Virus record (IMG/VR): IMGVR_UViG_3300020195_000651
Coordinates: 1 to 54,845 of that record
Source: a virus
Lineage: Duplodnaviria > Caudoviricetes
Direction: 5' to 3' (one strand)
DNA: 54,845 bases
The notes beneath the pieces are model-generated. The model had not been told where the DNA came from, searched no databases, and saw only the letters and a program-made list of their open reading frames with translations. Positions 4,930-54,771 of the stretch are shown here, one piece after another (position 1 is the stretch's first letter; each line of letters opens with the position of its first letter). A program made the position numbers and the translations under genes.

Positions 4930-5250
4930 CTAAACTTTATTTTTTACGTAGTCATCCCAGACTTTCCATGTGCCACCTTCGCTAACAGGACACAATATTT
5001 CTGAATCATCATAAACAGTCAGTACGACTTGAGAATGTATTTCTGGAATTTCGCCTTCATTTTTAGCGAAAACCAAGCTTGATCCGTTGTAAACATAAGT
5101 GATAATTGCATCAATTTGTTTCAACAAGTTTTCTAACTTGATAAAATGTTCATGATGATTTGAAAGCCGTGTGCGAACTTGTAAAGTGTATCTCATTTTT
5201 TTATCGTTTGAAATAGTCCATTGTGCCCAAGCATTCATTTGCTGCACCAA
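4930..5250 (-). CDS. Hypothetical protein
   Basis: ORF in the leftward operon; true start probably MRYTL. Confidence 0.6.
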   Translation of the reverse strand: MVQQMNAWAQWTISNDKKMRYTLQVRTRLSNHHEHFIKLENLLKQIDAIITYVYNGSSLVFAKNEGEIPEIHSQVVLTVYDDSEILCPVSEGGTWKVWDDYVKNKV

Positions 5251-6481
5251 TACGTTTCAGTGCCAAAGCATAGGCAGAAGTTCTGAGAGATGGAATTCTG
5301 TACTTATCCATTCTGGTTACTGTACGTTCTGTTGCATAGTTTATCATTTGTCGCAATCCCTTGTCAACATCTTCTGCTGTCCTTTGCTGTGCGTTTCGGT
5401 TCTGGAGCCATTCAAAGTAGGATACGACCACGCCTCCAGCGTTAGCCAAAATATCAGGGACGACGACAATTCCCTTGTCGTTCAAAATTGCGTCTGCTTC
5501 ATTGGTGGTTGGTCCATTTGCTAGTTCAAGAACGACTTTGGCTTGTATTTTATCAGCATTATTTTTCGTCAATACGTTTTCAATAGCCGCAGGCACCAAA
5601 ACATCGCATTTAAGGGCAAGTAATTCATCGTTAGTAATCAATGTTCCTTGTCCCCAATTACGCCAATTTGAATCTTGTAAGGATTTCAGTGCCAAATCAG
5701 CATCAAATTCTGGACCTTTGGGGTCCATGTATACACCGCCGTATTCATTACTGACGGCAATGATGCGATTGCACAATGTTTCTTTTCGAGCAAGTTTTTC
5801 ACAGAACCAATAACCAACTTTTCCGAATCCTTGAATTGCGATGGTGACAGGTGAGGAAGCGCGAAACTTGAGTTCGGATTGGCGTTCCATGATGTGTTCA
5901 AGGCAATAGTAAGCGCCGTAGCCTGTGGCTGAGTTTCGTCCTTCTATGCCCCCCAGAGCGACGGGAAGCCCCGTAATGACGGCTTTAGGGTGTCCACCCT
6001 TGATCTTGCGGTATTCGGAGTACATCCAGCCCATAACTCGTTCGTCAGTGGCTACGTCAGGTGCAGGGATGTCTGTGTCTGGTCCGATAAAGTCAATGAA
6101 GGCATCGATGTAGGCTTTGCTAATGCGTTCCAGTTCGCGGTGACTGAGTGAGTTGGCGTCAACGCATATTCCACCTTTGGAACCTCCGTATGGCAATTTC
6201 ACGCAGGCGCATTTGAAAGTCATCCAGAATGACAGAGCTTCTACGTGATCGCGGTCAACTTTGGGGTGAAATCTGATGCCACCTTTACATGGTCCAAGAG
6301 TGTCGTTGTATTGACATCTATAAGCTTTATACATCTTGAGCGACCCGTCGTCGTGTCGCATTGGAATTGCGCATTGAAGAGTTTTTTGCGGGTATTGAAG
6401 TCGCTCCCAACTTTCCGGATCAATTTCAGCAAAAGGGTATGCTGCCTCAAGTTGTTTTTTTGCCTCATCTAACATCGGCAT
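5201..6481 (-). CDS. gdhA: Glu/Leu/Phe/Val dehydrogenase (glutamate dehydrogenase)
   Basis: GPCKGGIRFHP, PYGGSKGG, DIPAPD, IQGFGKVG, ELANGP, NAGGVVVSYFEW. Confidence 0.93.
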   Translation of the reverse strand: MPMLDEAKKQLEAAYPFAEIDPESWERLQYPQKTLQCAIPMRHDDGSLKMYKAYRCQYNDTLGPCKGGIRFHPKVDRDHVEALSFWMTFKCACVKLPYGGSKGGICVDANSLSHRELERISKAYIDAFIDFIGPDTDIPAPDVATDERVMGWMYSEYRKIKGGHPKAVITGLPVALGGIEGRNSATGYGAYYCLEHIMERQSELKFRASSPVTIAIQGFGKVGYWFCEKLARKETLCNRIIAVSNEYGGVYMDPKGPEFDADLALKSLQDSNWRNWGQGTLITNDELLALKCDVLVPAAIENVLTKNNADKIQAKVVLELANGPTTNEADAILNDKGIVVVPDILANAGGVVVSYFEWLQNRNAQQRTAEDVDKGLRQMINYATERTVTRMDKYRIPSLRTSAYALALKRIGAANECLGTMDYFKR

Positions 6482-9292: not shown

Positions 9293-9852
9293 TTACGAGT
9301 CAGCTTGTACATTCAAAAATTCCAAATTTTCCGCATGGTCAAACTCGTTTTCTGCCTCAAACCAGAAGTCACAACCATCACATACAGGACAACCAGCAGC
9401 AATCCATTTGTAATACGCCAGTTCACGAATCTGACTTTGCCTGTGTCAAGTACCCACGACCCTAAAGGGTCGGGGCTTGGCATTCCAAATTTCGTGTTGG
9501 ACCGAACCGTGTCCGGCGTTTCACGCCGGACGACACGGTACTTGAAAACAAGTACGACGGACGCCAATAGGTTGCTTGACTGTAACCCAATACTATTAGA
9601 GTATGTAACAATTACTTTTGCAATATTTTGTCCTATGGGCGGCTTACCCACTACCCTAAAGGGCTGACTGGCGAGTACGCCAGTCAGCATCTACGATGTA
9701 GGGGCTTCCGCCGCCCTTCTCCGTGAATCATCTAGTGTTAGATGTACCAAATTTGGCATTGGAGGCGTTTCAGGAAAATTAATTGGCGGCACATTTTCCA
9801 ATGTAGGTACGTAAATAGCACTTGGATATACAATTTCAATCATTTCATTCAT
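9293..9852 (-). pseudogene. DUF2934-like gene (93 aa when rejoined) interrupted by the element at 9445-9722
   Basis: Joining 9852-9723 to 9444-9293 reads ...LTLDDSHRQSQIRELAYYKWIAAGCPVCDGCDFWFEAENEF..., matching the IRExAYxxWxxxGxP...WxxAE DUF2934 pattern. Confidence 0.8.
9445..9722 (-). mobile_element. Non-autonomous IS200/IS605-derived element, family B copy 1 (278 bp)
   Basis: Follows target TTCAC; LE guide GAAG + hairpin; RE CAAG-ccccgacccttt-agggtcgtggg-tac-TTGAC; near-identical to 41731-42028. Confidence 0.88.
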
Positions 9853-10320: not shown

Positions 10321-11376
10321 TCAGTTTCGAGTTTCTTCGTTGAAAAGTTGTTCTATCAGATCACTTGGAGTCAGGTGATGTTCGGGCGTAATTACCGTTC
10401 CTGCTGCGGCAAATCTTGCCAACATTTCTTGGAGTTCTTTGTAAGCAAAGAATCGCGGTCCAGTTTCCACATCTTTCGACATGTGTTTTTGAAGTCTGGC
10501 AAGGAACCAGTTACGAGTCTGCGTCAATCCGGGTGATAATTCATATTCCTCTGGGTTGTTGGAGAACCCAAGCAATCGGAACACATCTTCTGTGTCCAAC
10601 CAGCAGAAAGATGACCACGGGTCGTTTTCTTCGTATGCCGCAGGGAATGGTTTCTTCCGAGTCATTTCAATGAAGTGAATGAGCAAACGGGTCCAGTTCT
10701 TAATCAAATACGCATCCTTGCAGCCATCGCCCTCAATGATGCGAAATTCCAGTGTTTTTCGGCTGTTGCGAAGGTACTGGTTTGTGTTTAGAGAATAATA
10801 TTTAACATTCCCCACACGCTTGATCAGGTCAGCGGCACTCATCTTGGTGTCGTGCTGCACGAGATTCGTCATTCCCATGAACTGACAGTACCGATTTCTC
10901 TTTCGGGTTGGCGGAACCGAATCCATGAACAATGGCTCTACCTTGAACCAGTGTGCAATAACAGACGCAATCTCTGCTGGTTCCAGATCGGCAACCTCAA
11001 CGTGAATGTGAACAGAGCAACGCTGATCCACCTTGATTTTGGGGTCTGCGCCAATCGCGTGAACGACTTCGCAGCACCGTTTTAGTCCGCTCCACCCCTT
11101 GAAGACGGGTGTGCAAACTTCCATTCCGCAAGAACTGTCCGGCTTGAGAACCCACACGTCGTTTCCGTGCGTGTGTTCCCAATCGCGAATATCCACGCCT
11201 TCTGTGCTGTGGCGTGCCACTAGCATACCGACATAGTCGATACCAGCGGGTTTTTGACCTTGGTCGGGGCGGTTTTTCCCATCAAAAGCCAAAATCTCCA
11301 GTTCAATGCCGAAGCGTCGGTCTGAAGTGAAGCTCAAGTAAGGTAATTTGCCGCTTTTCTTGATTGGTTCGCCCAT
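10321..11376 (-). CDS. Putative amidoligase (COOH-NH2 ligase, Amidoligase_2 type)
   Basis: RRFGIELE, DSSCGMEVCTP, CSVHIHV, KYYSLN, TLEFR. Confidence 0.85.
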   Translation of the reverse strand: MGEPIKKSGKLPYLSFTSDRRFGIELEILAFDGKNRPDQGQKPAGIDYVGMLVARHSTEGVDIRDWEHTHGNDVWVLKPDSSCGMEVCTPVFKGWSGLKRCCEVVHAIGADPKIKVDQRCSVHIHVEVADLEPAEIASVIAHWFKVEPLFMDSVPPTRKRNRYCQFMGMTNLVQHDTKMSAADLIKRVGNVKYYSLNTNQYLRNSRKTLEFRIIEGDGCKDAYLIKNWTRLLIHFIEMTRKKPFPAAYEENDPWSSFCWLDTEDVFRLLGFSNNPEEYELSPGLTQTRNWFLARLQKHMSKDVETGPRFFAYKELQEMLARFAAAGTVITPEHHLTPSDLIEQLFNEETRN

Positions 11377-11391
11377 TATCTCTCCCTGTTT

Positions 11392-12081
11392 GTGACTGCA
11401 TCATATCAGACCGAGAAGTATCTATTCAACGTCAATTCTCTTTATGCACTAAAGGTATCTTATTGGACTTGTACAATCAATATCAAAACGTTACAATCAC
11501 GTCTAAAATTGTACCCAGGAGCAACCATGGCAATTATCCGTACTTCGGTGCCAACCAAGACCCCGCGCATCAAAAAAGAAAAACCAAAAAAACTGGCAAG
11601 CAAATGTCTTCTTCTCAAGACGCCAGACAATCGTTGTTTTTTTACTGAAGAAAAACACTTTCCTTGCCTGATTGAGTTTGGACGTACATTCGAGGCAGAA
11701 ATATCGGTTGTCAAAATGAAAGAACAAGTTGAAGTTCTTGATCTTGGAGATTTGGCAAAATCCATTTGCACTCCATCCACAACCGAAATAGTTCCGGACT
11801 ATGAAATTGTGGAGACCAAATTGGTCGCAACGCTAAAAAAAAATAGTGAAGTGCGAATTTCCAACCTAGAACAAGGCAAACTCGTATTAGAATACGTTCA
11901 ATCCATTCTACTTGCTGGTCATTTGGTGTGCGCTGGCGACTTGGAGAGTAAATTCCCGACGATCAACAAGGTTAAACTTTATAGTCATTTCACACGAGCA
12001 AGACGCGAAATGACTGCACAAGGACACACACTCAAAAAAGAAAAGCCTGGAACGTATCGTCTTGTCGCCAAACAAGATTAA
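11392..12081 (+). CDS. Hypothetical protein, possible C-terminal winged helix (probable start MAIIRT at 11527)
   Basis: AGGAG precedes ATG at 11527; C-terminus ends KKEKPGTYRL. Confidence 0.65.
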   Translation: MTASYQTEKYLFNVNSLYALKVSYWTCTINIKTLQSRLKLYPGATMAIIRTSVPTKTPRIKKEKPKKLASKCLLLKTPDNRCFFTEEKHFPCLIEFGRTFEAEISVVKMKEQVEVLDLGDLAKSICTPSTTEIVPDYEIVETKLVATLKKNSEVRISNLEQGKLVLEYVQSILLAGHLVCAGDLESKFPTINKVKLYSHFTRARREMTAQGHTLKKEKPGTYRLVAKQD

Positions 12082-16031: not shown

Positions 16032-16145
16032 TCATCTACGTCTAATTCAACTGCAAGCCATCCAGTAGGAACAATCCACTTGCGCCCATCGCTTGTCATC
16101 AGGCGATGTGTTCCAGAGGAACGGATTAGTGAACTACCCACGCCC

Positions 16146-17375
16146 CTAAAGGGGCGGGGCTTCCGCTCCAACCAATAGCCCACTCAGAGCGGGTCTTACA
16201 TCAGGGCAAGCGGCTATCCCTCTCGTTCCGAGAGTTCTGATCCTCAATCCTTCATTCAATATGTTACAAGCAGCGTTATGATCTCGCTGGTTGTTCTCCC
16301 AACAGTTCCAGCAACACCACTCACGTTCAGTTGGCTTTAACTCACGATTACGCCAACCACACTTGTTGCATAACTGAGACGAAGGATACCAACGACTAAC
16401 TTTCACCAACTCACGACCATACCAAACTGCTTTGTACATCAACTTCTGCACAAACGAGTAGAAACCACAATCGGCAATGTCCTTATGCCGTTTTCGCTCT
16501 TTCCATCGTGGTTCATCCCTATCGTCAGGCTTGGTCTTCGCAAGCATGTCACTCACAGAGTTGTCTTCGACAACAATAACTTGGTTCTCGTTAATGATGC
16601 GACGACTCAACTTGTGCAAATGATCTTCACGCTTGTTGTGTACCTTCAAGTACAACTTCGCTAACTTACGCTTCGCCTTCGTCCTCCCATTACCACCTTT
16701 CTCACTTCTCGATACTTCCTGATGCAACAACTTCAACCGTGCCGCAAATTGCTTCGCAGGACGAGGATTGACTTCAGTGTTACCATTGCTGTCCACCATC
16801 CCATGCACGTTCAGGTCGTAAGCCACAACTTCTGCTCGTTCTGACAACGGTTGAATATCACGCTCGACTGTGATTGAAACATGATATTGTCCTGCCTTAT
16901 TCTTGCTGATCGTGGCGAACTGTATATCACCTTCTACTTTGCGATGTTCGACGACAGGTATACCTTCCAAAAACTTCGGCATCACTAATTTGTCGTCAAT
17001 GATGTAGATGTTTTGTTTGACACGGAAGGATTGTTTAGCATGTCGTTTCTTGAACCGTGGGAAACCTTTCTTGCCTTTGATCTTTTGCTTCACCTTGCGG
17101 AAGAAGTTATCGTATGCACGTTGCAAGCATTCGACTGCGTATTGCAAACTTTGGCTTCCGACTTCTTTGAGCCAAGGAAACGCTTGCTTGAGTGTTGGCA
17201 GTTCTTTTTCGTTGTCGCTTCGTTTGAGTGATTTGTTGTTTGTTTTGTATTCTTGTATCCTTTTATCGAGGAAGTGGTTGAACACGAACCTGCCACAGCC
17301 GAAGTGTTTGGCGAGCAATACTTCTTGCTGAGTGGTTGGTGACAACCTCAGTTTGCAGGAATACAGGTGCTTCAC
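16146..17375 (-). CDS. tnpB: RNA-guided endonuclease TnpB
   Basis: N-terminal HTH (HFGCGRFVFN), GFPRFKK, RuvC D (AYDLN), E (VVED), D (QRDHNAACNI), Zn finger CNKC/CWNC. Confidence 0.95.
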   Translation of the reverse strand: MKHLYSCKLRLSPTTQQEVLLAKHFGCGRFVFNHFLDKRIQEYKTNNKSLKRSDNEKELPTLKQAFPWLKEVGSQSLQYAVECLQRAYDNFFRKVKQKIKGKKGFPRFKKRHAKQSFRVKQNIYIIDDKLVMPKFLEGIPVVEHRKVEGDIQFATISKNKAGQYHVSITVERDIQPLSERAEVVAYDLNVHGMVDSNGNTEVNPRPAKQFAARLKLLHQEVSRSEKGGNGRTKAKRKLAKLYLKVHNKREDHLHKLSRRIINENQVIVVEDNSVSDMLAKTKPDDRDEPRWKERKRHKDIADCGFYSFVQKLMYKAVWYGRELVKVSRWYPSSQLCNKCGWRNRELKPTEREWCCWNCWENNQRDHNAACNILNEGLRIRTLGTRGIAACPDVRPALSGLLVGAEAPPL

Positions 17376-17530
17376 TTATTTCCTTGCTTGGCGTAGTCAC
17401 GAATGAAGTCACGAAGCGTGTCGCTCATAGTTTTGTAGTTCTGGTCGCAGAGTGCTTTGAACTTATCGAAGAGTTCGGTTGGTACTCGTATGGACAAAAC
17501 CTTATCGGCTACGTTCTTTTTCTTTGTCAT
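17372..17530 (-). CDS. Ribbon-helix-helix (CopG-like) protein, 52 aa, not in the ORF track
   Basis: MTKKKNVADKVLSIRVPTELFDKFKALCDQNYKTMSDTLRDFIRDYAKQGNK*; GTGA overlap with the tnpB start. Confidence 0.75.
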   Translation of the reverse strand: MTKKKNVADKVLSIRVPTELFDKFKALCDQNYKTMSDTLRDFIRDYAKQGNK

Positions 17531-17854
17531 ACACTTTATATAGTGGTGTGCGACGATTTTTGAGCAAGGAAATTTGATTTTGAGCCGAATTTTTAGGGGA
17601 CGGTGCGTTTGTCTTGTTTTAACGGTGCTTGATTTTGCTTCAAGAATGAGTTAATCTTTAGTGTATCGCCTTCATCCCCTACCCTAAAGGGCTGGTAGGC
17701 AGTCTCCCTCGCTCCGCTCGGTCGCTTTGCCTACCAGCATCTAGCGATGTAGGGGCTTTCGGCTCCGAAGACGGGTAAATGCGTCACATTATTCAATTCT
17801 ACTTTATTGTCATTTGGGAAGTGGTACGTTCGCTTACGTTCGGGTTCTTTCAGT

Positions 17855-26219: not shown

Positions 26220-26792
26220 TTATTCCTTGAAGTGTTGTTCGCCTTTGAGAATCAATTTCTTGATTTCTTTAGGTGACAGAATCTTTTCCAGTCCGCTTTT
26301 ATAAAGCCCTGGGATTAAATCAAAATCAATTGCATATGTTACATTGTTGTATTTGATTGAGTCAATGGAGAATATTGGTGCGTTGATGGATGGATGCCAC
26401 CCGCTCATATACCGCATAACTTTTCCTTTCCATCCTGTTCCTAAACGGGAACACCAAACACTGCTATGATACTCAACCCAGTATGTTCTATCAGCAAGTT
26501 GGACCATTCTTTGTAGTGGAGATGGCGCAATTTGCTCTCCGACAAACATGCTTGCAAATGATGTTGGATAGCGTCTCCCTGCTTCTATAAGCCTCATCAT
26601 GCGTCCACGTCCATCATGTGGATATGCCACGCAATACATCAATGAATCATGCGTTTTTAACAACTCACTGATAAGTCCAAAATCGGGCGTTTGAAAATCA
26701 TTGTGCCGAAGAAAGTCAAAAATCGCCATCCTGTCTTCTGGTGTTTTTGGTTTAGTTCCCTTTACACTGTCACGCAGCTTTTTGACTTTCAT
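26220..26792 (-). CDS. Hypothetical protein (possibly ATP-grasp-related)
   Basis: 190 aa; IFSID...YAIDFD..PG. Confidence 0.6.
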   Translation of the reverse strand: MKVKKLRDSVKGTKPKTPEDRMAIFDFLRHNDFQTPDFGLISELLKTHDSLMYCVAYPHDGRGRMMRLIEAGRRYPTSFASMFVGEQIAPSPLQRMVQLADRTYWVEYHSSVWCSRLGTGWKGKVMRYMSGWHPSINAPIFSIDSIKYNNVTYAIDFDLIPGLYKSGLEKILSPKEIKKLILKGEQHFKE

Positions 26793-28131
26793 ATTGTTCC
26801 TCCTTTTGGAGTTCGCTCATTTTATCAACAGCAAGATTTGAGTCATCGCGATACGACATCAAGTGGTGTTGTAGTTTCGCCATACTGGTTTTTTCTCCAA
26901 TTCCAGCAGCGAATCGTTCTGCCAATTTTGGATTTGCGTCTGGATAAAATCGGAGGAAAAGACGATAAGCTTGACTTGGTGTTGTGTCTCCAATATAAAC
27001 TTTAACATCTGCTCTACCAGGACGAGTCAGAGCGGCGTCCAATTTCTCTGGATGGTTTGTTGTCATGAACACTATTCTTCCATCTTGAGCCATGATCCCG
27101 TCCAAAGCGTTTAACACACCACTGAATGTCAATCCGAAATCAATTCCCTTTTTACGGTCTGTGCCTGGATTTCTTTTCACAAAGGCACAATCAATATCTT
27201 CGATCAAAACGATGGTGTTGGTGTCAACGCTCCCCAACAATTCAATGATCTTCCCGTCATTCATTCCTGGGGAGGACAATGAAAGAACATTGACATTCAT
27301 TCCCAATTCGCTTGCGACTGCTAGTACGAATGAGCTTTTCCCATTGCCCGGTGAGCCATAAAGCAAATATCCGCGTCGGTATGGAACGCCAAGTTTTGTG
27401 TACCATTCGCCTGATTTTTGGAATCTTTTTACATCTGCCAAAACTTGTTCGCTTGTGCCTTCTTCTAAAACAACGGATTCAATTGGGCGTGGACGAATTC
27501 TTCCTGTCAAGTTCCAGTATGATCCCTGACCGCATGTTCTGATTTCCACTTTACCATCTTTAGGCAAAGCGAAATCACGTGCCTCTTCTACAATCTGTTT
27601 GGCAATGTCAATATTTCTGCTGAAGATACGGAGAGTCAAACTTTCTCGTGGTTTCATCCCACTATCAGATGATCCGCCTTTACCTTCTGGCTCGGTACGG
27701 TTGCGGTTCATCGTAACGAGAGTGCCCTTGTAGAAAAACCAATACCACCCAGGCGCAGGAGTGAACACGATTCGTGGTCGCTTGTCTTCGTTATCGTCTT
27801 GTACATATTTGAATTTATCTACGTCGTCTTCCCACTCAGGTGCGGCTTTTGGTCTACGTGTGAATACGGAGACTGAGCGACTACCTTCGAGGGTTCTGGA
27901 GAGCCAGAGTTTCATCCATTGAAAACTTTCATCTTCTTCTTGGATGTCTACGACAGTGATGAACCATCGCTCAAACAGTCGAAACAGTTTACCGGGAACA
28001 TTGCGGAAATAGGCAAGAGCTGCCCCGAACACAATGAGGAGTGCGCCACCCGAGACGAACTCAGTCCCGCCTGGAAGGAACGGAATCATTTTGTTTCCAA
28101 AAGTTTTAGTTCTGTGGCGTGTCCCGCACAC
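26770..28131 (-). CDS. BCS1-like membrane-anchored AAA+ ATPase (probable start MIPFL, 28089)
   Basis: N-terminal TM segment; GVPYRRGYLLYGSPGNGKS, IEDID, FSGVLNALDG, MTTNH, LTRPGRAD. Confidence 0.9.
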   Translation of the reverse strand: MCGTRHRTKTFGNKMIPFLPGGTEFVSGGALLIVFGAALAYFRNVPGKLFRLFERWFITVVDIQEEDESFQWMKLWLSRTLEGSRSVSVFTRRPKAAPEWEDDVDKFKYVQDDNEDKRPRIVFTPAPGWYWFFYKGTLVTMNRNRTEPEGKGGSSDSGMKPRESLTLRIFSRNIDIAKQIVEEARDFALPKDGKVEIRTCGQGSYWNLTGRIRPRPIESVVLEEGTSEQVLADVKRFQKSGEWYTKLGVPYRRGYLLYGSPGNGKSSFVLAVASELGMNVNVLSLSSPGMNDGKIIELLGSVDTNTIVLIEDIDCAFVKRNPGTDRKKGIDFGLTFSGVLNALDGIMAQDGRIVFMTTNHPEKLDAALTRPGRADVKVYIGDTTPSQAYRLFLRFYPDANPKLAERFAAGIGEKTSMAKLQHHLMSYRDDSNLAVDKMSELQKEEQYESQKAA

Positions 28132-40446: not shown

Positions 40447-41007
40447 ATGCCTAAGTTATTCAAAGTGCCTGAATGTTTCTATAAACCAAAAGCTGGTCAG
40501 TACGGTCTTGTTGGTTCAGATGCATATGCAGAAGTTGATTGGGTTGCGTGCCGAGAGGAATTTGAGGAATGTGGTAATCCACGCAAGTTTTTGTTTTGCG
40601 CACTAAAAGGCGAAAGCAGAGCAATCAGGAGGTTTCTTGACGATGCACAGGATCGTATAAAACTTCCCAAACGTGATCGTCTCAAAGTGCTTCAGACAAA
40701 TACACCGACCGTCATCCTCATCAAAACGGGGAAGTTTTGGCGCAACGAAGTCAGATTGTCTTTGTTGACTTGCTTGTTGAGGGTGGGGAAATATTACAAG
40801 GGCAAGAACAACTTTTGGGATACAATCAATAAGTTTCCGTATTTAGCCGAAACAGAAGATGCAGTTGCATGGTTCTTGATGGGCAATACTGTTTATCAAG
40901 ATAAAGATTTTGATTTTGAAGGTTGGTTGACAACTTTTGAGGATATATCATTACGACAACTGGAAAAAATTCTCAAAAAACCAAATCGTCGTCGTAATAA
41001 AGTTTAA
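40447..41007 (+). CDS. Hypothetical protein
   Basis: 186 aa; AAGGAG RBS. Confidence 0.75.
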   Translation: MPKLFKVPECFYKPKAGQYGLVGSDAYAEVDWVACREEFEECGNPRKFLFCALKGESRAIRRFLDDAQDRIKLPKRDRLKVLQTNTPTVILIKTGKFWRNEVRLSLLTCLLRVGKYYKGKNNFWDTINKFPYLAETEDAVAWFLMGNTVYQDKDFDFEGWLTTFEDISLRQLEKILKKPNRRRNKV

Positions 41008-41020
41008 CAAAGGAAAGCCA

Positions 41021-41581
41021 GTGCCAATCGAGAACGAAAGAAAATTTATTTTGCGGATGCTTCCTCATCTGGAGAATAAATTTATCAAGTCAGCAGAAGA
41101 AATTTATTACATTGAACAAGCGTATCTTTTCCGAGGCAAAGGACTGACTGTACGAATACGCAAGCAAAGAGATCGTAATAACAAAGAAATTCAAGTTTTG
41201 ACAACAAAACAACGTGTTGGTGCAAGAATTATCGAGATAGAGAAACGCATCAGCATTGAAGACTATGATGAAATGAGCAAGGTTGCAGAAGGTTGTTTGA
41301 AAAAAGTCAGGTATGTTTTGAAAGGGTGGGAGATTGATTTTTTCAAAGACAGTAGCGAAACGTACTTTGTAATGGCGGAAATTGAATTGCCGGATGGCGT
41401 GGAATCACCAGACAGACTGCCTAAATTTATAACTCAAAACCTATTGTTTGAAGTCCCATTAAATGATTGCCGATTTTCAAGTAAGAAGTTATCAGATGTG
41501 GAATACGCTAAAGCGTTGCTGGAAGAAGTTGTTCGCCAATCAGGAACTTCCCCCAGTATGGGTCAACTTGAATGTCACTGA
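41021..41581 (+). CDS. CYTH-domain protein
   Basis: ENERKF, IEQAYL, VRIR, EIEK, KKVRY, WEIDFF, MAEIEL; GTG start at 41021. Confidence 0.88.
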   Translation: MPIENERKFILRMLPHLENKFIKSAEEIYYIEQAYLFRGKGLTVRIRKQRDRNNKEIQVLTTKQRVGARIIEIEKRISIEDYDEMSKVAEGCLKKVRYVLKGWEIDFFKDSSETYFVMAEIELPDGVESPDRLPKFITQNLLFEVPLNDCRFSSKKLSDVEYAKALLEEVVRQSGTSPSMGQLECH

Positions 41582-41849
41582 CACCTGGAATCAACATGGT
41601 CCATGTGGAATTTGTTACTATCGAACTAATTGCAGAGAGATCGTAATAAAGTTTAAGTATCTATGGTTAGATGATGATAAGTATGAACAGAAGTATTGTT
41701 CTGGTGTGTTGATAGAAATGAATACTTCACCGGGAAGGGCGGCGGAAGCCTCTACATCGTAGATGCTACACTGCCGCTTTGGGCAGTGTAGCCCTTTAGG
41801 GTAGTGTAGCCCTTTAGGGTAGTGGGTAAGCCGCCCATAGGACAAAATA

Positions 41850-41878
41850 TTGCAAACGTAATTGTTGCATACTATAAT
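41850..41878 (+). promoter_or_regulatory. sigma70 promoter inside the family B element
   Basis: TTGCAA-17 nt-TATAAT (TTGCAA-17-TCTAAT in copy 1). Confidence 0.7.
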
Positions 41879-41883
41879 AGTAT

Positions 41884-42028
41884 TGGGTTGCAGTCAAGCA
41901 ACCTATTGGCGTCCGTCGTACTTGTTTTCAAGTACCGTGTTGTCCGGCGTGAAACGCCGGACACGGTTCGGTCCAACACGAAATTTGGAATGCCAAGCCC
42001 CGACCCTTTAGGGTCGTGGGTACTTGAC
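41884..42028 (+). ncRNA. Structured RNA scaffold, candidate omega-type guide RNA
   Basis: Hairpins ggttgc-agtcaa-gcaacc, gtacttg-tttt-caagtac, gtccggcgt-gaa-acgccggac and the RE hairpin; loop GTCAA is complementary to terminal TTGAC. Confidence 0.55.
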
Positions 42029-42246
42029 AGAATACACAAAATAATTGTGTATTATGAAGATTTCAATGATAAAAGTGCAGATGATTTACTTCGTAGAATA
42101 AATTGCGCATTTCTTCACTTTAAGTGCAAGGCTAGATTTAATAGTGAAAGAGTTAGTTTGAGCATTATTTACAAGGAAATCAGGGATAACGCTGTTCAAT
42201 TTGATCGGTTCTTTGAAAATGAAATGGTGGACACTAAATAAGTAAT

Positions 42247-42858
42247 ATGGAAGACGATTTCGAAAAATGGGTATCTGCGTGGGCGGCAGCCGAACAAGAG
42301 ATTGCCCAAGAACGACAAACAAAAGAGCCAGAGCCGGAACCACCGTCTCGCACAAGCTATTTTAGTGGTTCACCGTCAGATCAAGACTATCACGATAGTG
42401 AAGATGGACAGGCTGACGATTGGAATAACCTCTATAGCCGTGCTATGGAGATTGATTTCTCACAGCCTGATACATTGATTACAGATGGCGTCAATGTCGC
42501 TTACGCTGGTGAAGAAGGCTATGGAAAGCAGACCATTCCTCCTCTTGGCAAGTCACCAACTCCAGGTGGCAAGAAAGTCTATACCAATCAACCTATTCAT
42601 TTTGCTTCGGCAGGTGAAGACCAAGAAGGTGATGATGGTCACGTAAGAGTTACCAACAATTGGAATCAGGGCAAAGAACTTGAGGAGCTGTCTGATATCA
42701 AGACTCGTCTTGAAGCAATGGAAAGACGTGCGCATAGTTCTGATGTCTTGAAAAAGAAAGATTTTGGCAGCTTGAAGACTCAACTGGAAGGAATGCGAAA
42801 GCGTGTCAAGCAGTTGAGCGAAAAGTTGACTTCAACTCCACAAAATGATTTGACGTGA
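42247..42858 (+). CDS. Hypothetical protein, acidic with coiled-coil C-terminus
   Basis: 203 aa; TAAATA 6 nt before ATG. Confidence 0.75.
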   Translation: MEDDFEKWVSAWAAAEQEIAQERQTKEPEPEPPSRTSYFSGSPSDQDYHDSEDGQADDWNNLYSRAMEIDFSQPDTLITDGVNVAYAGEEGYGKQTIPPLGKSPTPGGKKVYTNQPIHFASAGEDQEGDDGHVRVTNNWNQGKELEELSDIKTRLEAMERRAHSSDVLKKKDFGSLKTQLEGMRKRVKQLSEKLTSTPQNDLT

Positions 42859-42870
42859 AAATAATATCTT

Positions 42871-42896
42871 AAACACCAAGAATATTCTTGGTGTTT
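42871..42896 (+). terminator. Perfect 26 bp palindrome plus T-rich tail
   Basis: aaacaccaagaat|attcttggtgttt. Confidence 0.7.
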
Positions 42897-42950
42897 TATT
42901 TTTCGATATTGACTCAATCAATAAATTAATATACACTATCTCCATATTCA

Positions 42951-43481
42951 TTGGAGATTAATATGCCCGCAGTTTGGCAAGCAAATTTAGACGTAGTTCA
43001 GTTGGTTGAAAAGGTTAGATTGAAGAATCATGTTCCAAGACTTGAATTAGCAAGTGTGGCGATATGTTTTAGCGACACGAAACCTTTTGTTGGGGGTAGA
43101 TTCAATTGGGGAAAGGTTTCTAAGTTTTCTCCTGTTGCTAAACTTTATCACGCAAAATGTTTTGATTTTTTGATTACAATTTGTGCAGATGCTTGGGTTT
43201 CAATATTGGATGAGTCGCAACGAGAAGCATTGATTGATTTGCACCTGGAAAGGTGTCAAGTTGATTACGAGCCAGTTTGTGAAGAAATCAATGGTGTGAA
43301 GAAGCCAATCAAAGACGAGTGGGGAAGAATCCAAGTCACTGATGTTATCAAAACAAATGACGATGGCAGTCCGAAATGGAAAGTGGACCCACTTGATTTG
43401 AACGTTTTTCAAAGTAACGTATTACGGTATGGATGCTGGTGTGAAGACCTAATTGAATTCAAAACGGCAGTATCAAAATGA
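42951..43481 (+). CDS. Phage metallopeptidase-like protein with degenerate HExxH
   Basis: DFLITI...W......REALIDLHLERC...DL..F..NV.RYG.W; TTGACT-17-TACACT promoter at 42909. Confidence 0.6.
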   Translation: MEINMPAVWQANLDVVQLVEKVRLKNHVPRLELASVAICFSDTKPFVGGRFNWGKVSKFSPVAKLYHAKCFDFLITICADAWVSILDESQREALIDLHLERCQVDYEPVCEEINGVKKPIKDEWGRIQVTDVIKTNDDGSPKWKVDPLDLNVFQSNVLRYGCWCEDLIEFKTAVSK

Positions 43482-44915: not shown

Positions 44916-45740
44916 ATGCGTACTTTTACCATTCTTCGGAGCCGAAAGCCCCTACATCGTAGATGTTGCACCGCCGCTTTGGGCGGTGCAACCCTTTAGG
45001 GTAGGGGATGAAGGCGATGCACTAAAAATTGAAGCAAAAACAAATACTACTTTTTGTGGAATAAAACACTGACAAATGACTCTATTATCTTGTATCGCCA
45101 CGAAAACCAAGCGGTGATGCACTTAGAACACCCCGAAAGGGGATAACAAACTACGGGCGGAACGCCCGAAAGTAAAGCCCGTGGACTTGGTATAAGACCG
45201 TGCATCCTTAATTGGATACTTAGGCGACCGAGGTTGAAACGGGAAGCCCCGACCCTTTAGGGTCGTGGGTAGTTCACTGAATACTATAGTTTAATGACTG
45301 AAGAATTTTTCACAAAAATAATAACAGGTGGTGTCGCTCCAGTCGGAACAGTAGGAATTATTACGGCCGAGAATCCAGACGCAAATAAATTGACTAAAAT
45401 TGGTAACGACAGGAAAAACAAGGAATTGATTGCTGATCTGGAAAAAGATGGATTTGCTCCAATCCAGATGAAGGGTAAGTTTGCCGGACAACAAGAAAAT
45501 CCGTTCTTGATTATAAACATTACACGTGATAAATTGGTTGAACTTGCTAAAAAATACAAACAACAATCAGTGATCTACGGTGAGAAAAAAGGCAAAGAGC
45601 CTTTTGAATTTATGTATATTCAAGATGGCAAAACAACTAAAAAAGGTAAATTGGGTTTAGAACACCCAAAGAATTTACTTGATCAAGATTGCTATTTTGT
45701 TTTATCTGGCAAGAAATTCAATATTCATTTCAAGAGTTGA
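44916..45740 (+). CDS. DUF3293-like protein whose first codons are separated from the body by the element at 44930-45277
   Basis: Rejoined: MRTFT|EYYSLMTEEFF...; GIITAENP, EN.FLI, LAKKYKQQSVIY; internal ATG at 45294 could give a shortened product. Confidence 0.75.
44930..45277 (+). mobile_element. Non-autonomous IS200/IS605 element, family A (348 bp) with a tnpB-type omega-RNA end
   Basis: After TTTAC; LE tcttcggagccgAAAGcccctacatcg as at 17774; RE GAAG-hairpin-tag-TTCAC. Confidence 0.88.
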
Positions 45741-47318: not shown

Positions 47319-48920
47319 TTGCAGGAGATAATCATGGAAAACAAGTCTGGAATCGAAGAAATAAAGAACGAAGCAGGCGGTACAGCCTATAAGCTGACAT
47401 CCGCTGCCGCTCTTGCGCAAATGGCAGTTACGGGGTGTCTCAATCAGACGTTCTATGCAAGCGCAGAGACGCAACAGAAGACGATCCTTGACCTTTGTGA
47501 TAAGGTTGAGCCGGAGTTGGTGGCAAAGATAGCCGTGTACGCTCGTGAGAGCGGATACATGAAAGATGTTCCTGCATTGCTGTGTGTTTGGCTGGCTTCC
47601 CGTCGCCACAACGATTTACTGACTAAAGTGTTCAGTCGCGTGATCGATAACGGGAAGATGTTGCGCAACTTCGTGGAAATTCTGCGAAGTGGATCAACTG
47701 GACGGAAGTCATTGGGGTCTCTGCCAAAGAGACTTGTTGCGAACTGGTTCAATTCACGGACCACCAAAGAGATTTTCCAACAGTCAGTGGGTGGTGATCC
47801 ATCGTTCCGCGACATTCTCAGACTTTCACACCCAAAGCCCTTGGACCGCACAAAGAATGCAATGTATCGTTGGTTCTTGGGGAAAGAACACGACGTAAAC
47901 GATCTGCCAGAGATTGTTCAGCAGTTTGAAGATTTCAAGAGCGGCAAAAACAAGGAAGTTCCACAAGTTCCGTTTGAAATGCTAACTGCACTCAAACTAG
48001 GGCAGTCGGAATGGTGTCAGATTGCCATGAGAGCAGGATGGCATTGGACAAGGATGAATCTCAACACGATGCATCGACATAAAGTGTTCGATGTGCCAGA
48101 AATGATTGACATGGTTGTCAAGCGTTTGACGGATCGTGAAGCGATTAGCAAAGCTCGTGTCTTCCCGTATCAACTTCTGGCGGCATACAAGAACGCAGGG
48201 TCAGAAACTCCGCATAAGGTGCGAGAGGCATTGCAGGATGCGTTGGAGATTGCAACTGAGAATATCCCACAACTTCCAGGTGATGGGTTCATTCTCATGG
48301 ATAAGTCCGGGTCCATGCGATCTCCAGTAACAGGAGTTCGACAAGGATCAACATCCAAAGTTACGTGTGTGGATGTTGCTGGATTATTGGCAAGTGCAAT
48401 ACTTCGTAAAAATCCATCGTCTTCTTTGATTCCGTTTGACAGTGACGTAGTGGCACATACGTTGAATCCACGCGACACAGTGTTGACAAATGCCGATAAG
48501 TTGGCTAAGATGTGCAACGGCGGAACGAACTGTTCTGCTCCACTCGCCTATCTCAACAAGAGAATGGCGAAGGGCGATTGGATTATGTTGATCTCTGATA
48601 ACCAGTCATGGGTCGATAGTTTAGGCACGAAAATGCCAGTAGCGCCATCGTCATACCGCGCAAGCAGCTACTACAATGCTGGTCCTGGTCATACCAAGTT
48701 CATGCAAGAATTTGACTTGTTCAAAGAACGAAATCCATCTGCGAACCTTGTGGCTCTGGACATTCAGCCTTATGCAACAACTCAGGCTCAGGAACGCACT
48801 GATGTTCTCAACATCGGTGGGTTTTCAGACGCTTGCTTTAACATCGTCAATCTCTTCTATCGAGGGGAATTGACGCCTGACCACTGGCTGGGTGTAATCT
48901 CAGCAATTGATCTGGGATAA
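47319..48920 (+). CDS. rsr: Ro60/Rsr TROVE-domain RNA-binding protein with vWA domain
   Basis: NEAGG, TFYASA, YARESGYMKDVP, LRLSHPKP, RMNLNT, VFPYQL, MIDAS DKSGSM, GGTNCS, ISDNQ, IGGFSD. Confidence 0.93.
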   Translation: MQEIIMENKSGIEEIKNEAGGTAYKLTSAAALAQMAVTGCLNQTFYASAETQQKTILDLCDKVEPELVAKIAVYARESGYMKDVPALLCVWLASRRHNDLLTKVFSRVIDNGKMLRNFVEILRSGSTGRKSLGSLPKRLVANWFNSRTTKEIFQQSVGGDPSFRDILRLSHPKPLDRTKNAMYRWFLGKEHDVNDLPEIVQQFEDFKSGKNKEVPQVPFEMLTALKLGQSEWCQIAMRAGWHWTRMNLNTMHRHKVFDVPEMIDMVVKRLTDREAISKARVFPYQLLAAYKNAGSETPHKVREALQDALEIATENIPQLPGDGFILMDKSGSMRSPVTGVRQGSTSKVTCVDVAGLLASAILRKNPSSSLIPFDSDVVAHTLNPRDTVLTNADKLAKMCNGGTNCSAPLAYLNKRMAKGDWIMLISDNQSWVDSLGTKMPVAPSSYRASSYYNAGPGHTKFMQEFDLFKERNPSANLVALDIQPYATTQAQERTDVLNIGGFSDACFNIVNLFYRGELTPDHWLGVISAIDLG

Positions 48921-53098: not shown

Positions 53099-53657
53099 CA
53101 GCCTGATTGATTGGGAAAACAAAAAAGTCTTGACTTCCCACCGCACTGTCGGCGGGCATCGTCGCTGGTTGGAAGACGACATACAAAAGTTACTGACCAT
53201 TCACGAAGTGAAGGAAGAGAAACGGTATTGTTACTACGCTCGTTGCTCAACCGCTAAACAAAAAGAGAACCTTGAGCGACAAGTAGAACGGCTCAAAAAG
53301 CACTGTCATGACAAGGGCTACGCCAATGTCAAAGAGTTCTCCGAGATCGGTTCTGGACTCAATGACAACAGACCCAAACTGCACAAACTGATTGACGCCG
53401 TTCTCAAGAAAGAAGTGAACCACATCGTTGTGGAGTACAAGGACCGGCTCGCCAGATACGGGTTCAAGTTCTTGATGCGGTTCTTCAAGGGGTTGGGCTG
53501 CATGATTGAGTTTCTGGACGAGAAGGCTACCAAGGACGACAATGAGGAATTAGTGCAGGATGTGTTGAGTCTGTTCACTTGTTTCTCAGCACGGCTTACA
53601 AGATTTTCCAAGAAAGATGGAAAAACCTGCCAAGAAAATGATGCAACTTTACTATGA
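53049..53657 (+). CDS. tnpA: IS607-family serine recombinase/transposase (TnpA)
   Basis: MerR-like HTH (RTVGGHRR), YARCST catalytic Ser, [37 protein letters not shown]. Confidence 0.9.
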
Positions 53658-53688
53658 TATAATAGGCAATCAATGCGTAAGGAGCATC

Positions 53689-54771
53689 ATGCAGGTAGGT
53701 TTAGCAGAAGCCGCCAAACAGTTAGGGGTATCAATCAAGACGCTACGAAATTGGGATGCGGCTGGAAAACTCAAAACAGTCAGAACAGTCGGCAATCAGA
53801 GGCGTGTGCCAATTGAAGAAGTTGAACGACTGAAAGGTGGCGACAACGCCAGAGTACACACGACTGAGATGGTTGATAGAACTGCTTGGATGACTCGTAT
53901 TTGCGAAAAGTGTCAACAAGAGTTTTTGATACCACAGTGGCGGCTCAATGAAAGTCCGAAACGTGGTAAATTCTGTAGTCGGAAGTGTCAAGGCAATGGC
54001 TACTGTGAAGTGAATGAGAATTTCTTTTCTGAGCAAAATTCACAGATGGCGTATGTCCTTGGGCTGCTTGTTACAGATGGCTACTTGACGCACAAGAGCG
54101 ATAGACGTGAAATACTGTGTCTCAAGTTGATCGACAGAGATTTGTTAGAAGAAGTCCGAGATATGATGGACTCAACATACGGCATATACAATTGTGGTTT
54201 GACCGACGCTGGCAACTCGATTTATCGTATTGAGTTTGATCGTAGGCAGTTGATTGAGGATGTGAAGAAGTATGGGGTGGTTCATCATAAGACACTTATT
54301 ACGACATTCCCGAAGTTACTTGAAGGTAGGTATTATCCTGATTTCGTGCGAGGCGTTCTTGATGGTGATGGTTGTGTGCATTGGAGAAAAGATAAGCGAC
54401 GTAACAATGGTTACAATGTAGAAACGTATTTCTTAGGAACATTTGACTTGTTGAATGGTATTGCAAATGCTCTTGGCACTCGTCGTAAACCAGAGCCATA
54501 CACTGCTGTAGCTAAGTTGAGGTTTCAGTCTCGTTCAGAGGTTAAGATGATTTACGACTACCTCTACTATGGCAATGCTGATGTGCCATGCCTGAAAAGG
54601 AAGAGAATAAAGTTTGAGGAAATACTCGCTTTGCCGTTCAATGTGCGTCCAAAGGGCAGCAAAAACAAGAAGAAACTAGCAAAGACATTACAAATTGGAT
54701 CGAACAATGAGCAAGAAAAACAAACACAAGAAGTTCAGCCAAGTGTGGAGCAACCAAACGGAGTTAGGTAA
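53689..54771 (+). CDS. MerR-HTH + Zn-finger + two-motif LAGLIDADG endonuclease
   Basis: AAGGAG before ATG at 53689; [16 protein letters not shown]; CEKC..FCSRKC; [10 protein letters not shown] and [10 protein letters not shown]. Confidence 0.85.

What the first reader, a model, noticed from the sequence alone, without database searches (positions are those of the whole stretch)
41731..42028. Protein-free IS605-type element expressing its own structured RNA: candidate orphan guide-RNA cassette (two copies)
Seen: two near-identical copies (9445-9722 minus, 41731-42028 plus). Each consists of a left-end hairpin, a sigma70 promoter (TTGCAA-17-TATAAT or TCTAAT) and a roughly 145 nt multi-hairpin segment that ends at the right end TTGAC. 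The first loop (GTCAA) can pair with the terminal TTGAC as a pseudoknot. Apart from the shared right-end hairpin, the scaffold differs from the 3' region of the tnpB element in this window. Known: TnpB omega-RNAs end at the right end and use the flanking DNA as guide. Inference: these are trans-acting guides (acaggcaaagtcagattcgt..., agaatacacaaaataattgt...) for a different RNA-guided protein encoded elsewhere, targeting TTCAC-adjacent empty alleles.
Basis: partly seen in the sequence, partly recalled or inferred. Interest (0 to 1): 0.75.

Follow-up and report, generated by a model that had tools for sequence, protein, structure and literature searches.

The report
Guide-RNA-only miniature IS605 transposon
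Two copies of a 280-300 base, protein-free IS200/IS605-type mini-transposon sit in this phage fragment; each keeps only the transposon ends, a promoter and the guide-RNA scaffold of a TnpB nuclease encoded elsewhere, a kind of element already mentioned in print.

Summary
There are two copies (41731-42028 +, 9445-9722 -). Each follows TTCAC and ends in TTGAC, and each has an end domain, a sigma70-like promoter and a 144-nt structured segment.

The element is a non-autonomous IS200/IS605 element (PATE). At least 14 distinct insertion sites of near-identical copies were found, and diverged copies occur in 4 other viral contigs.

The structured segment is a TnpB-type omega-RNA scaffold:
- A covariance model built only from protein-free copies hits the 3' ends of tnpB genes of a distinct clade at 70-76 bits. 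That clade has the same TTCAC target and the same TTGAC end.
- The same model scores only 27.7 bits on the window's own tnpB.
- Across 7 diverged copies, 96.6% of cells are paired and 13 pairs carry double changes, including the loop-to-3'-end pseudoknot.
- G-U counts favour the + strand.
- The promoter is the tnpB promoter of coding relatives, joined directly to the start of the scaffold.
- A matching TnpB lies on the same contig as mini copies in 3 contigs, but not in this window.

Not shown: expression, use in trans, and cleavage.

PATEs that encode omega-RNAs for TnpB in trans are already noted by Meers et al. 2023. This is a new member of a known kind. Its own features are the phage setting and an extra three-way junction seen only in protein-free copies.

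The parts
41731..42028 (+). Copy B, whole mini-element (298 nt)
   Evidence: The boundaries are set by 14 distinct insertion sites of near-identical copies.
41726..41730 (+). TTCAC target site, predicted TAM, immediately left of copy B
   Evidence: TTCAC flanks 9 of 9 complete copies found without requiring it. It also flanks L054, L060D and the coding or deleted relatives L008, L068 and L042.
41731..41848 (+). Left-end domain. Closing stem 41737-41743 with 41830-41836, a variable inner hairpin, and the TnpA-type hairpin CCCTTTAGGGTAGTGGG. Includes the 18-nt tandem duplication 41786-41821.
   Evidence: DNA fold -28.2 kcal/mol, z -4.15. The motif occurs 10 times in the window against 0.23 expected.
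41850..41878 (+). Sigma70-like promoter TTGCAA-17-TATAAT, facing the right end
   Evidence: 10 of 12. The -10 aligns with the tnpB promoter -10 of L008 and L068. A -10-like hexamer sits 5-7 nt before the first hairpin in 8 of 8 mini-elements.
41885..42028 (+). Omega-RNA-type scaffold. Order: hairpin 1, long-range stem, three-way junction with two hairpins, right-end hairpin (41997-42021), 3' pseudoknot strand.
41893..41898 (+). Pseudoknot 5' strand GUCAAG, in the loop of hairpin 1
   Evidence: Pairs with 42023-42028. The sixth pair covaries G:C, C:G and U.G, and also U:A in L007 and L043.
42023..42028 (+). Pseudoknot 3' strand CUUGAC, which is also the right-end cleavage motif
42029..42044 (+). 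Predicted 16-nt guide, taken from flanking phage DNA
   Evidence: Inferred from TnpB biology (a 16-nt guide 3' of the scaffold; PMC10097598 passages). The sequence is unique in the window.
9445..9722 (-). Copy A, whole mini-element (278 nt)
9723..9727 (-). TTCAC target site, predicted TAM, of copy A
9595..9623 (-). Promoter of copy A, TTGCAA-17-TCTAAT
   Evidence: Read.
9445..9588 (-). Scaffold of copy A
   Evidence: 170.7 bits.
9429..9444 (-). Predicted guide of copy A
   Evidence: Inference; unique in the window.
9296..9852 (-). Host gene split by copy A. Exact removal of the element gives a 93-aa ORF whose C-terminal half is DUF2934.
   Evidence: Pfam DUF2934 E 2.2e-8, 34 bits against a cut-off of 22.
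41463..41762 (+). Host ORF hit by copy B 9 codons before its stop. Exact removal gives 98 aa. The next ORF (to 42241) may start at a GTG at 42047.
   Evidence: The start codon is inferred.

Best explanation
Each copy is a non-autonomous IS200/IS605-family element (a PATE). It derives from a tnpB-only insertion sequence whose elements insert 3' of TTCAC and end in TTGAC.

The tnpB reading frame is gone. Three things remain:
1. The two ends that a Y1 transposase (TnpA) needs.
2. The tnpB promoter of the left end.
3. Directly after the promoter, the complete core of the TnpB omega-RNA: hairpin 1, a pseudoknot to the last six bases, a long-range stem and the right-end hairpin.

In this lineage the apical part of the RNA has been replaced by a three-way junction.

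Shown here: the anatomy, mobility (many insertion sites), homology to the 3' ends of tnpB genes of a clade different from the window's own tnpB, selection on the RNA structure on the + strand, and presence of a matching TnpB on the same contig as mini copies in three contigs.

Inferred, at about even odds: the promoter makes an RNA that starts at hairpin 1 and runs about 16 nt into the flank. A TnpB of that clade, encoded elsewhere in the phage or in its host, loads this RNA in trans. It then cuts alleles that read TTCAC followed by the flank without the element. Recombination with an occupied copy restores or spreads the insert. A TnpA supplied in trans moves the element to new TTCAC sites.
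For: Copies and ends:
- There are 14 distinct right flanks for copies at least 94% identical, and TTCAC lies left of 9 of 9 complete ones.
- Diverged copies in L009, L041, L054 and L060 show about 76% identity where BLAST reported it, for L009 and the second L060 copy.
- Exact removal of copy A restores a 93-aa DUF2934 ORF.
- The triplet 5' of the hairpin foot matches the cleavage or target site in each case: AAA with TTTAC, GAA with TTCAC, CAA with TTGAC (read). This is the recognition rule I recall for IS608.

RNA structure:
- 54 pairs, 96.6% of 378 cells paired, 13 pairs with changes on both sides against 7.1 +/- 1.4 in shuffles (0 of 500 reach it). Slid controls give 33-42% paired.
- Helices found only in protein-free copies carry 7 of those 13 pairs (helices 4 and 6).
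- Strand: 365 of 378 cells pair on the + strand and 334 of 378 on the - strand; 38 G-U cells against 7 A-C cells.

Homology:
- Model R1, built from protein-free copies only, scores 76.2, 75.5, 75.2 and 70 bits on the 3' ends of tnpB in L068, L159, L007 and L008, and 41.6-59.1 bits on L195, L197 and L199.
- It scores 27.7 bits on the window's tnpB.
- The shared core is visible.
- The two TnpB clades are 28% identical over 224 aa.

Promoter: a -10-like hexamer lies 5-7 nt before hairpin 1 in 8 of 8 mini-elements. It aligns with the -10 that precedes the GTG start of tnpB in L008 and L068.

Partner:
- A clade-2 TnpB is on the same contig as mini copies in three cases: Ga0163150_10000254 (L068 with L056 and L068-), IMGVR 3300043543_000044 (L053/L200 with L041) and 3300043543_000061 (L199 with L054).
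- The L068 TnpB has the three RuvC motifs aligned to Cas12f and TnpB structures.

Known frame: the ISDra2 omega-RNA has a pseudoknot between its last bases and its 5' region, and a 16-nt 3' guide (PMC10097598 passages).
Against: - There are no expression data.
- The 54.8-kb window holds no TnpA and only the other-clade TnpB. It is an estimated 11% of the genome.
- The three-way junction is absent from all 8 distinct tnpB-linked scaffolds seen (L068, L159, L007, L008, L053, L195, L197, L199). Whether those TnpBs accept this RNA is therefore untested.
- L054 has one mismatch in the pseudoknot, and copy A has a weaker -10 (TCTAAT).
- The seven sequences are related and the nested structure was predicted from them. 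Both controls therefore overstate support, as the tool itself warns.
- The promoter is inherited from the parent element, so its presence alone does not show selection for RNA output.
Confidence: 0.72

Rival explanations
1. It is a relic PATE. The element is moved by TnpA in trans. The scaffold is a leftover of the parent tnpB element with no present RNA function, and its structure is conserved only by descent.
For: No RNA evidence exists. No partner TnpB is in the window. The promoter is inherited. Degraded fragments exist: L042 is truncated and L044, L048, L049 and L055 are remnants. The related sequences inflate the covariation statistics (caveat).
Against: Seven pairs with changes on both sides lie in helices 4 and 6, which were seen only in protein-free copies. 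All 8 tnpB-linked scaffolds lack these helices. The pseudoknot pair covaries among mini copies. The -10 position is kept in 8 of 8 minis, including L043, whose upstream sequence differs.
Confidence: 0.2
2. It is mainly a mobile outward-facing promoter. The effect that matters is transcription of the gene downstream of the right end, and the RNA structure is incidental.
For: The promoter faces the right end and no terminator-like site was found in 41500-42300. In copy B the next ORF begins about 18 nt after the element.
Against: This does not explain the conserved pseudoknot and helices. 2 of the 11 copies examined lie antisense inside an ORF.
Confidence: 0.04
3. It is an IscB-type (HEARO) omega-RNA read on the opposite strand, starting in the flank and entering through the TTGAC end.
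For: Rfam HEARO matches the - strand at 42028-41858 with 20.5 bits, E 0.043, aligning its first stem and the end hairpin. Meers et al. report that the IscB RNA is bounded by the right end.
Against: The score is far below the gathering score of 83, and the middle of the HEARO model is missing. Pairing is worse on the - strand, 88.4% against 96.6%. The promoter points the other way. The same modules lie inside tnpB 3' ends. No RRXRR domain was found in the window, but the control genomes did not ring, so that search is uninformative.
Confidence: 0.03
4. It is a self-splicing, IStron-like element that removes itself from the host mRNA.
For: Both window copies lie in sense orientation inside ORFs.
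Against: No group I or II intron match appears at the gathering threshold in the window, or up to E = 10 around copy B. Other copies are antisense or intergenic.
Confidence: 0.01

Closest known systems
PATEs (palindrome-associated transposable elements) of IS200/IS605 that carry omega-RNAs, as noted for Geobacillus stearothermophilus by Meers et al. 2023 (PMC10055086; passages seen)
   Same: No gene. Left and right ends with TnpA-type hairpins. Insertion after a fixed pentanucleotide without duplication. An omega-RNA scaffold that would need a TnpB encoded in another element.
   Different: Found in phage-like contigs. The tnpB promoter is fused directly to the 5' end of the scaffold. The apical region is replaced by a three-way junction not seen in the 8 tnpB-linked relatives. 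I could not see Extended Data Fig. 2e or the supplements of that paper, so their PATEs may share some of these traits.
tnpB-only IS200/IS605 elements (IS1341-like, a name recalled) of the TTCAC/TTGAC clade: L008, L068, L007, L053
   Same: Same target, same right-end motif, same left-end promoter region, and same scaffold core: hairpin 1, pseudoknot, long-range stem and right-end hairpin.
   Different: They encode a 362-368 aa TnpB, and their apical hairpin holds the stop codon. The focal element has no ORF and a 63-position insertion there.
ISDra2 TnpB omega-RNA (PMC10097598; abstract and passages)
   Same: The scaffold ends at the right end. A pseudoknot joins the last bases before the guide to the 5' region. 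The guide is taken from the flank, and the TAM equals the transposon target site.
   Different: No detectable sequence similarity was tested. TAM is TTGAT there and TTCAC here. Scaffold is 116 nt there and 144 nt here.
HEARO / IscB omega-RNA (Rfam RF02033)
   Same: The end hairpin and the GUCAA...UUGAC pairing are shared when the right end is read on the opposite strand.
   Different: 20.5 bits against a gathering score of 83. The strand test and the gene linkage point to TnpB.

Membership tests
IS200/IS605 non-autonomous element (PATE) | Imperfect subterminal hairpins at both ends on the same strand | tested here: met
   CCCTTTAGGG..G hairpins lie at both ends of each copy, all on the element's own strand. 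There are 10 matches in the window against 0.23 expected. Folds.
IS200/IS605 non-autonomous element (PATE) | Insertion 3' of a fixed short target, no target duplication, fixed cleavage motif at the right end | tested here: met
   TTCAC lies left of 9 of 9 complete copies. TTGAC is the last five bases in all. The right flanks differ (A x10, T x2, C x2 among 14 sites). Exact removal restores the copy A ORF.
IS200/IS605 non-autonomous element (PATE) | No protein-coding gene | tested here: met
   The longest stop-free runs are 36-82 codons, and the frame is not shared between diverged copies.
IS200/IS605 non-autonomous element (PATE) | Mobilised by a Y1 TnpA in trans | not testable with these tools
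   No PF01797 match in the window. Many insertion sites show past mobility.
TnpB omega-RNA (reRNA) | Scaffold overlaps the right end and stops at the transposon boundary | tested here: met
   Model hits end at 42028 and 9445.
TnpB omega-RNA (reRNA) | Homologous to the 3' end of tnpB genes | tested here: met
   70-76 bits on L068, L159, L007 and L008. 41.6-59.1 bits on L195, L197 and L199. Alignment.
TnpB omega-RNA (reRNA) | Pseudoknot between the last bases before the guide and the 5' part of the scaffold | tested here: met
   6 pairs, 97.6% of cells paired. The sixth pair shows G:C, C:G and U.G, and also U:A in L007 and L043.
TnpB omega-RNA (reRNA) | Transcript carries about 16 nt of flank as guide and is bound by TnpB | not testable with these tools
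   No RNA data were available for this stretch.
TnpB omega-RNA (reRNA) | Cognate tnpB adjacent | tested here: not met
   No ORF in the element. The only tnpB in the window is of another clade. This is why the element is filed as an orphan, trans-dependent form.
HEARO / IscB omega-RNA | Reaches the Rfam gathering score | tested here: not met
   20.5 bits against 83. No hit at the gathering threshold.
Group I intron / IStron | Match to an intron covariance model | tested here: not met
   No intron family appears at E up to 10 in 41600-42150 or at the gathering threshold in the window.

The most novel reading that the evidence does not exclude
The focal elements are an evolved lineage of guide-only hyperparasites rather than decaying deletions. 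They have shed tnpB, start transcription exactly at the scaffold, and have gained their own three-way junction. They spread through large phage genomes by borrowing both TnpA and TnpB from other elements. During co-infection each copy would then act as an RNA-guided homing cassette against phage alleles that lack it.
Probability: 0.3. Interest if true: 0.6.

Novelty: new member of a known kind. Interest (0 to 1): 0.35.

Why it matters
If the RNA is used in trans, these 280-nt elements are the smallest self-propagating units of the TnpB system: a promoter, a guide scaffold and two ends.

They would show how guide and nuclease can separate, which is a step that models of CRISPR origins require. 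They would also show that phage genomes can carry many RNA-guided homing cassettes at the cost of one nuclease gene.

The family is also a compact natural test set. It holds one TnpB clade and two scaffold architectures, which allows asking which parts of an omega-RNA the protein needs.

The idea itself is already in print: PATEs with omega-RNAs (PMC10055086, passages seen) and transposon homing between co-infecting phages (Table 1 of PMC13565253, seen). The gain is therefore a well-documented example, not a new principle.

Tried and rejected
- Intron reading: no intron model matched.
- Reading-frame test of the boundaries: my first scan suggested that 299 or 279 nt must be removed. That came from forcing the wrong downstream frames. 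With exact boundaries copy A restores a DUF2934 ORF, and copy B fits two overlapping genes. The 159-aa fusion for copy B cannot be excluded.
- Empty sites: none were obtained. blastn of 41000-43000 against GenBank phages found nothing. The search for related loci with the upstream ORF of copy B found no relative.
- Exact right-end pattern in viral contigs: 0 hits.
- Pattern for the junction hairpin: only L009 and L042, so no tnpB-linked copy of the three-way junction was found.
Only L159 (a Chloracidobacterium MAG) is a real family member; the rest look like chance matches.
- RNA runs: no RNA holder was listed.
- The genome search on metagenome loci: the records are not held.
- RRXRR search in the window: no hit, but the controls did not ring, so it is uninformative.
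- Papers: searches (listings only). They did not list a paper on guide-only elements in phages, and I opened only four papers. Supplements were not available.

Full report
**Observation**

The two copies are at the coordinates given. Copy B is 41731-42028 (+), 298 nt. Copy A is 9722-9445 (-), 278 nt. BLAST inside the record aligns them at 88% over positions 4-298, E 1.3e-110.

Both copies follow TTCAC and end in TTGAC. Copy B carries an 18-nt tandem duplication in its left end (41786-41821), and the two copies have different inner left-end hairpins.

The promoter TTGCAA-17-TATAAT is at 41850-41878 and matches 10 of 12 positions. Copy A has TCTAAT as its -10.

The 144-nt segment after the promoter folds far better than shuffles: -69.1 kcal/mol, z -5.7, and 0 of 200 shuffles fold as well.

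**Setting**

The window is a linear IMG/VR virus record that CheckV rates 11% complete. Its genes include DNA polymerase A, a DnaB-like helicase, a RecA-like protein, a Ro60/TROVE-vWA protein and one tnpB.

The end-hairpin motif CCCTTTAGGG..G occurs 10 times against 0.23 expected. Apart from one 1-mismatch hit inside the third element, these matches are the end hairpins of four elements:
- the two focal copies;
- a tnpB element (17774-16129, -);
- a third protein-free element (44930-45277, +).

The last two follow TTTAC and end in GTTCAC, so they belong to a different family from the focal copies.

**What kind of element**

A metagenome scan and viral-contig scans brought in many more copies.

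Copies at least 94% identical to copy B have 14 different right flanks. TTCAC stands left of 9 of 9 complete copies, found with a search that did not require it. The first base after TTGAC varies (A x10, T x2, C x2), so the element ends at TTGAC.

Diverged copies lie in four other viral contigs or loci: L009, L041, L054 and a second copy in L060. L009 and the second L060 copy are about 76% identical to copy B.

Removing copy A exactly restores a 93-aa ORF whose second half is DUF2934 (E 2.2e-8).

For copy B, exact removal gives a 98-aa ORF hit 9 codons before its stop, followed by a separate downstream ORF. A 159-aa fusion needs one more base removed, and I cannot exclude it.

No frame stays open across diverged copies.

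The triplet 5' of each hairpin foot is complementary to the first three bases of the site cut at that end: AAA/TTTAC, GAA/TTCAC and CAA/TTGAC. This is the recognition rule I recall for IS608 TnpA. L054 is an exception.

All of this is the anatomy of a non-autonomous IS200/IS605 element. No TnpA is encoded in the window.

**What the structured segment is**

Coding relatives exist. L008 and L068 are elements with the same TTCAC flank and a TTGAC end, and they encode TnpB proteins of 368 and 362 aa.

The last roughly 105 nt of these elements share four modules with the focal segment:
- a first hairpin whose loop pairs with the last six bases;
- a conserved strand (UAUUGNCGUCCG) that pairs with UUGGAAUGNCAA;
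- the right-end hairpin;
- the terminal NUUGAC.

A covariance model built only from seven protein-free copies gives these scores:

| Target | Bits |
|---|---|
| Two window copies | 175, 171 |
| tnpB 3' ends of L068, L159, L007, L008 | 76.2, 75.5, 75.2, 70 |
| L195, L197, L199 | 41.6-59.1 |
| 3' end of the window's own tnpB | 27.7 |

The two TnpB clades are 28% identical over 224 aa.

**Structure and strand**

I counted the RNAalifold structure plus the pseudoknot on the seven sequences:
- 54 pairs, with 96.6% of 378 cells paired;
- 13 pairs with changes on both sides, against 7.1 +/- 1.4 in shuffles (0 of 500 reach it);
- 33-42% paired in the slid controls.

The sixth pseudoknot pair reads G:C, C:G and U.G, and U:A in L007 and L043. 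One pair of the long-range stem reads U:A, G:C and, in L042, C:G.

The sequences are related and the nested structure was predicted from them, so these controls flatter the result.

The strand test favours the + strand: 365 of 378 cells pair on it and 334 of 378 on the other strand, with 38 G-U cells against 7 A-C cells.

The weak HEARO match on the - strand (20.5 bits, gathering score 83) covers the right-end hairpin and the same inverted repeat. Meers et al. report that IscB RNAs abut the right end. I therefore read the match as shared transposon-end sequence, not as an IscB guide.

**Promoter**

In L008 and L068 the left end carries a -10 box a few bases before the GTG start of tnpB. In the mini-elements the same -10 is followed by hairpin 1.

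A -10-like hexamer lies 5-7 nt before hairpin 1 in 8 of 8 mini-elements: TATAAT six times, TCTAAT once and TATAAA once. This includes L043, a mini-element with the short scaffold and different upstream sequence.

The deletion that removed tnpB therefore joined the transcription start to the 5' edge of the scaffold.

**The extra domain**

In all 8 distinct tnpB-linked scaffolds, about 24 nt forming one hairpin with the stop codon stand where the focal type has 63 model positions forming a three-way junction. A pattern search for that junction found no coding copy. Seven of the 13 doubly changed pairs lie in its two hairpins. That argues for selection on the RNA within the protein-free lineage.

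**Partner**

A clade-2 TnpB lies on the same contig as focal-type copies in three contigs. The L068 protein aligns to Cas12f and TnpB structures (best E 9.6e-34) with the three RuvC motifs in place; naming the motifs rests on my own knowledge.

GC content of the loci that carry copies ranges from 0.36 to 0.51. The element is therefore spread over several genomes of one community, possibly phages and hosts.

**Mechanism**

Shown: the anatomy, mobility, homology and structural selection.

Inferred from published TnpB work:
- The RNA runs about 16 nt into the flank.
- A clade-2 TnpB loads it in trans.
- TTCAC serves as the TAM.
- Unoccupied alleles are cut and repaired from an occupied copy.

The two predicted guides are unique in the window.

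**Novelty**

Meers et al. (PMC10055086; passages only) write that PATEs often encode omega-RNAs that would have to be acted on in trans by TnpB. A 2026 review (PMC13565253; passages and Table 1) lists transposon homing between co-infecting phages.

The literature searches (listings only) did not list a paper on guide-only elements in phages. Supplements and extended-data figures were not available to me.

I rate this a new member of a known kind. It is of moderate interest for the promoter-to-scaffold fusion, the lineage-specific junction and the phage setting.

Noticed in passing
window 16129-17774 (-): A complete tnpB element of the other family: flank TTTAC, end GTTCAC, TnpB of 409 aa at 16146-17375. 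Between the left end and tnpB it carries a 52-aa ORF (17372-17530) with a weak ribbon-helix-helix match (E 0.0012, below the cut-off). L005 holds a 97% identical TnpB.
   Followed up: partly
window 44930-45277 (+): A third protein-free element (348 nt) with the TTTAC/GTTCAC ends of the other family. Its 3' part resembles the tnpB 3' ends of L017, L019 and L029. Copies 95-99.7% identical occur in L015 (two), L020 and L028. It is probably another guide-only PATE.
   Followed up: partly
L063:1790-2077: This locus has the same right flank as copy A at 99.8% over 4.8 kb. Its left end is the other family's type and follows TTTAC in unrelated DNA. It is either a recombinant between elements or an assembly chimera at the shared left-end sequence.
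   Followed up: partly
L060:10995-12353: A diverged focal-type mini-element (11321-11590) sits after a TTCAC inside a tnpB gene of a third clade and splits that gene.
   Followed up: no
L042 (- strand), rc positions 921-1450: An internally deleted clade-2 tnpB element (left end, last third of tnpB, scaffold, TTGAC) abuts a promoter plus a focal-type scaffold that has lost its right end.
   Followed up: no
L044, L048, L049, L055 (e.g. L055:1091-1204): The 3' half of the focal-type scaffold is fused to the end of a 339-aa ORF. By motif the ORF looks like a DNA methyltransferase; this rests on my reading and was not tested.
   Followed up: no
window 42028-41858 (-): The right end read on the opposite strand resembles the first stem and hairpin of HEARO, the IscB guide RNA. 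This suggests that TnpB and IscB guides of this transposon clade use the same inverted repeat on opposite strands.
   Followed up: partly
window 47319-48920, 5201-6481, 26770-28131, 53617-54771: The phage fragment encodes a Ro60/TROVE-vWA protein, a glutamate dehydrogenase, a BCS1-like AAA ATPase and a MerR-LAGLIDADG fusion. This content is unusual and fits a very large phage.
   Followed up: no
window, whole: TTCAC occurs 146 times on both strands (118 expected from base composition), yet only two sites are occupied. TTGAC is enriched (196 against 118) and TTTAC is depleted (130 against 178).
   Followed up: no
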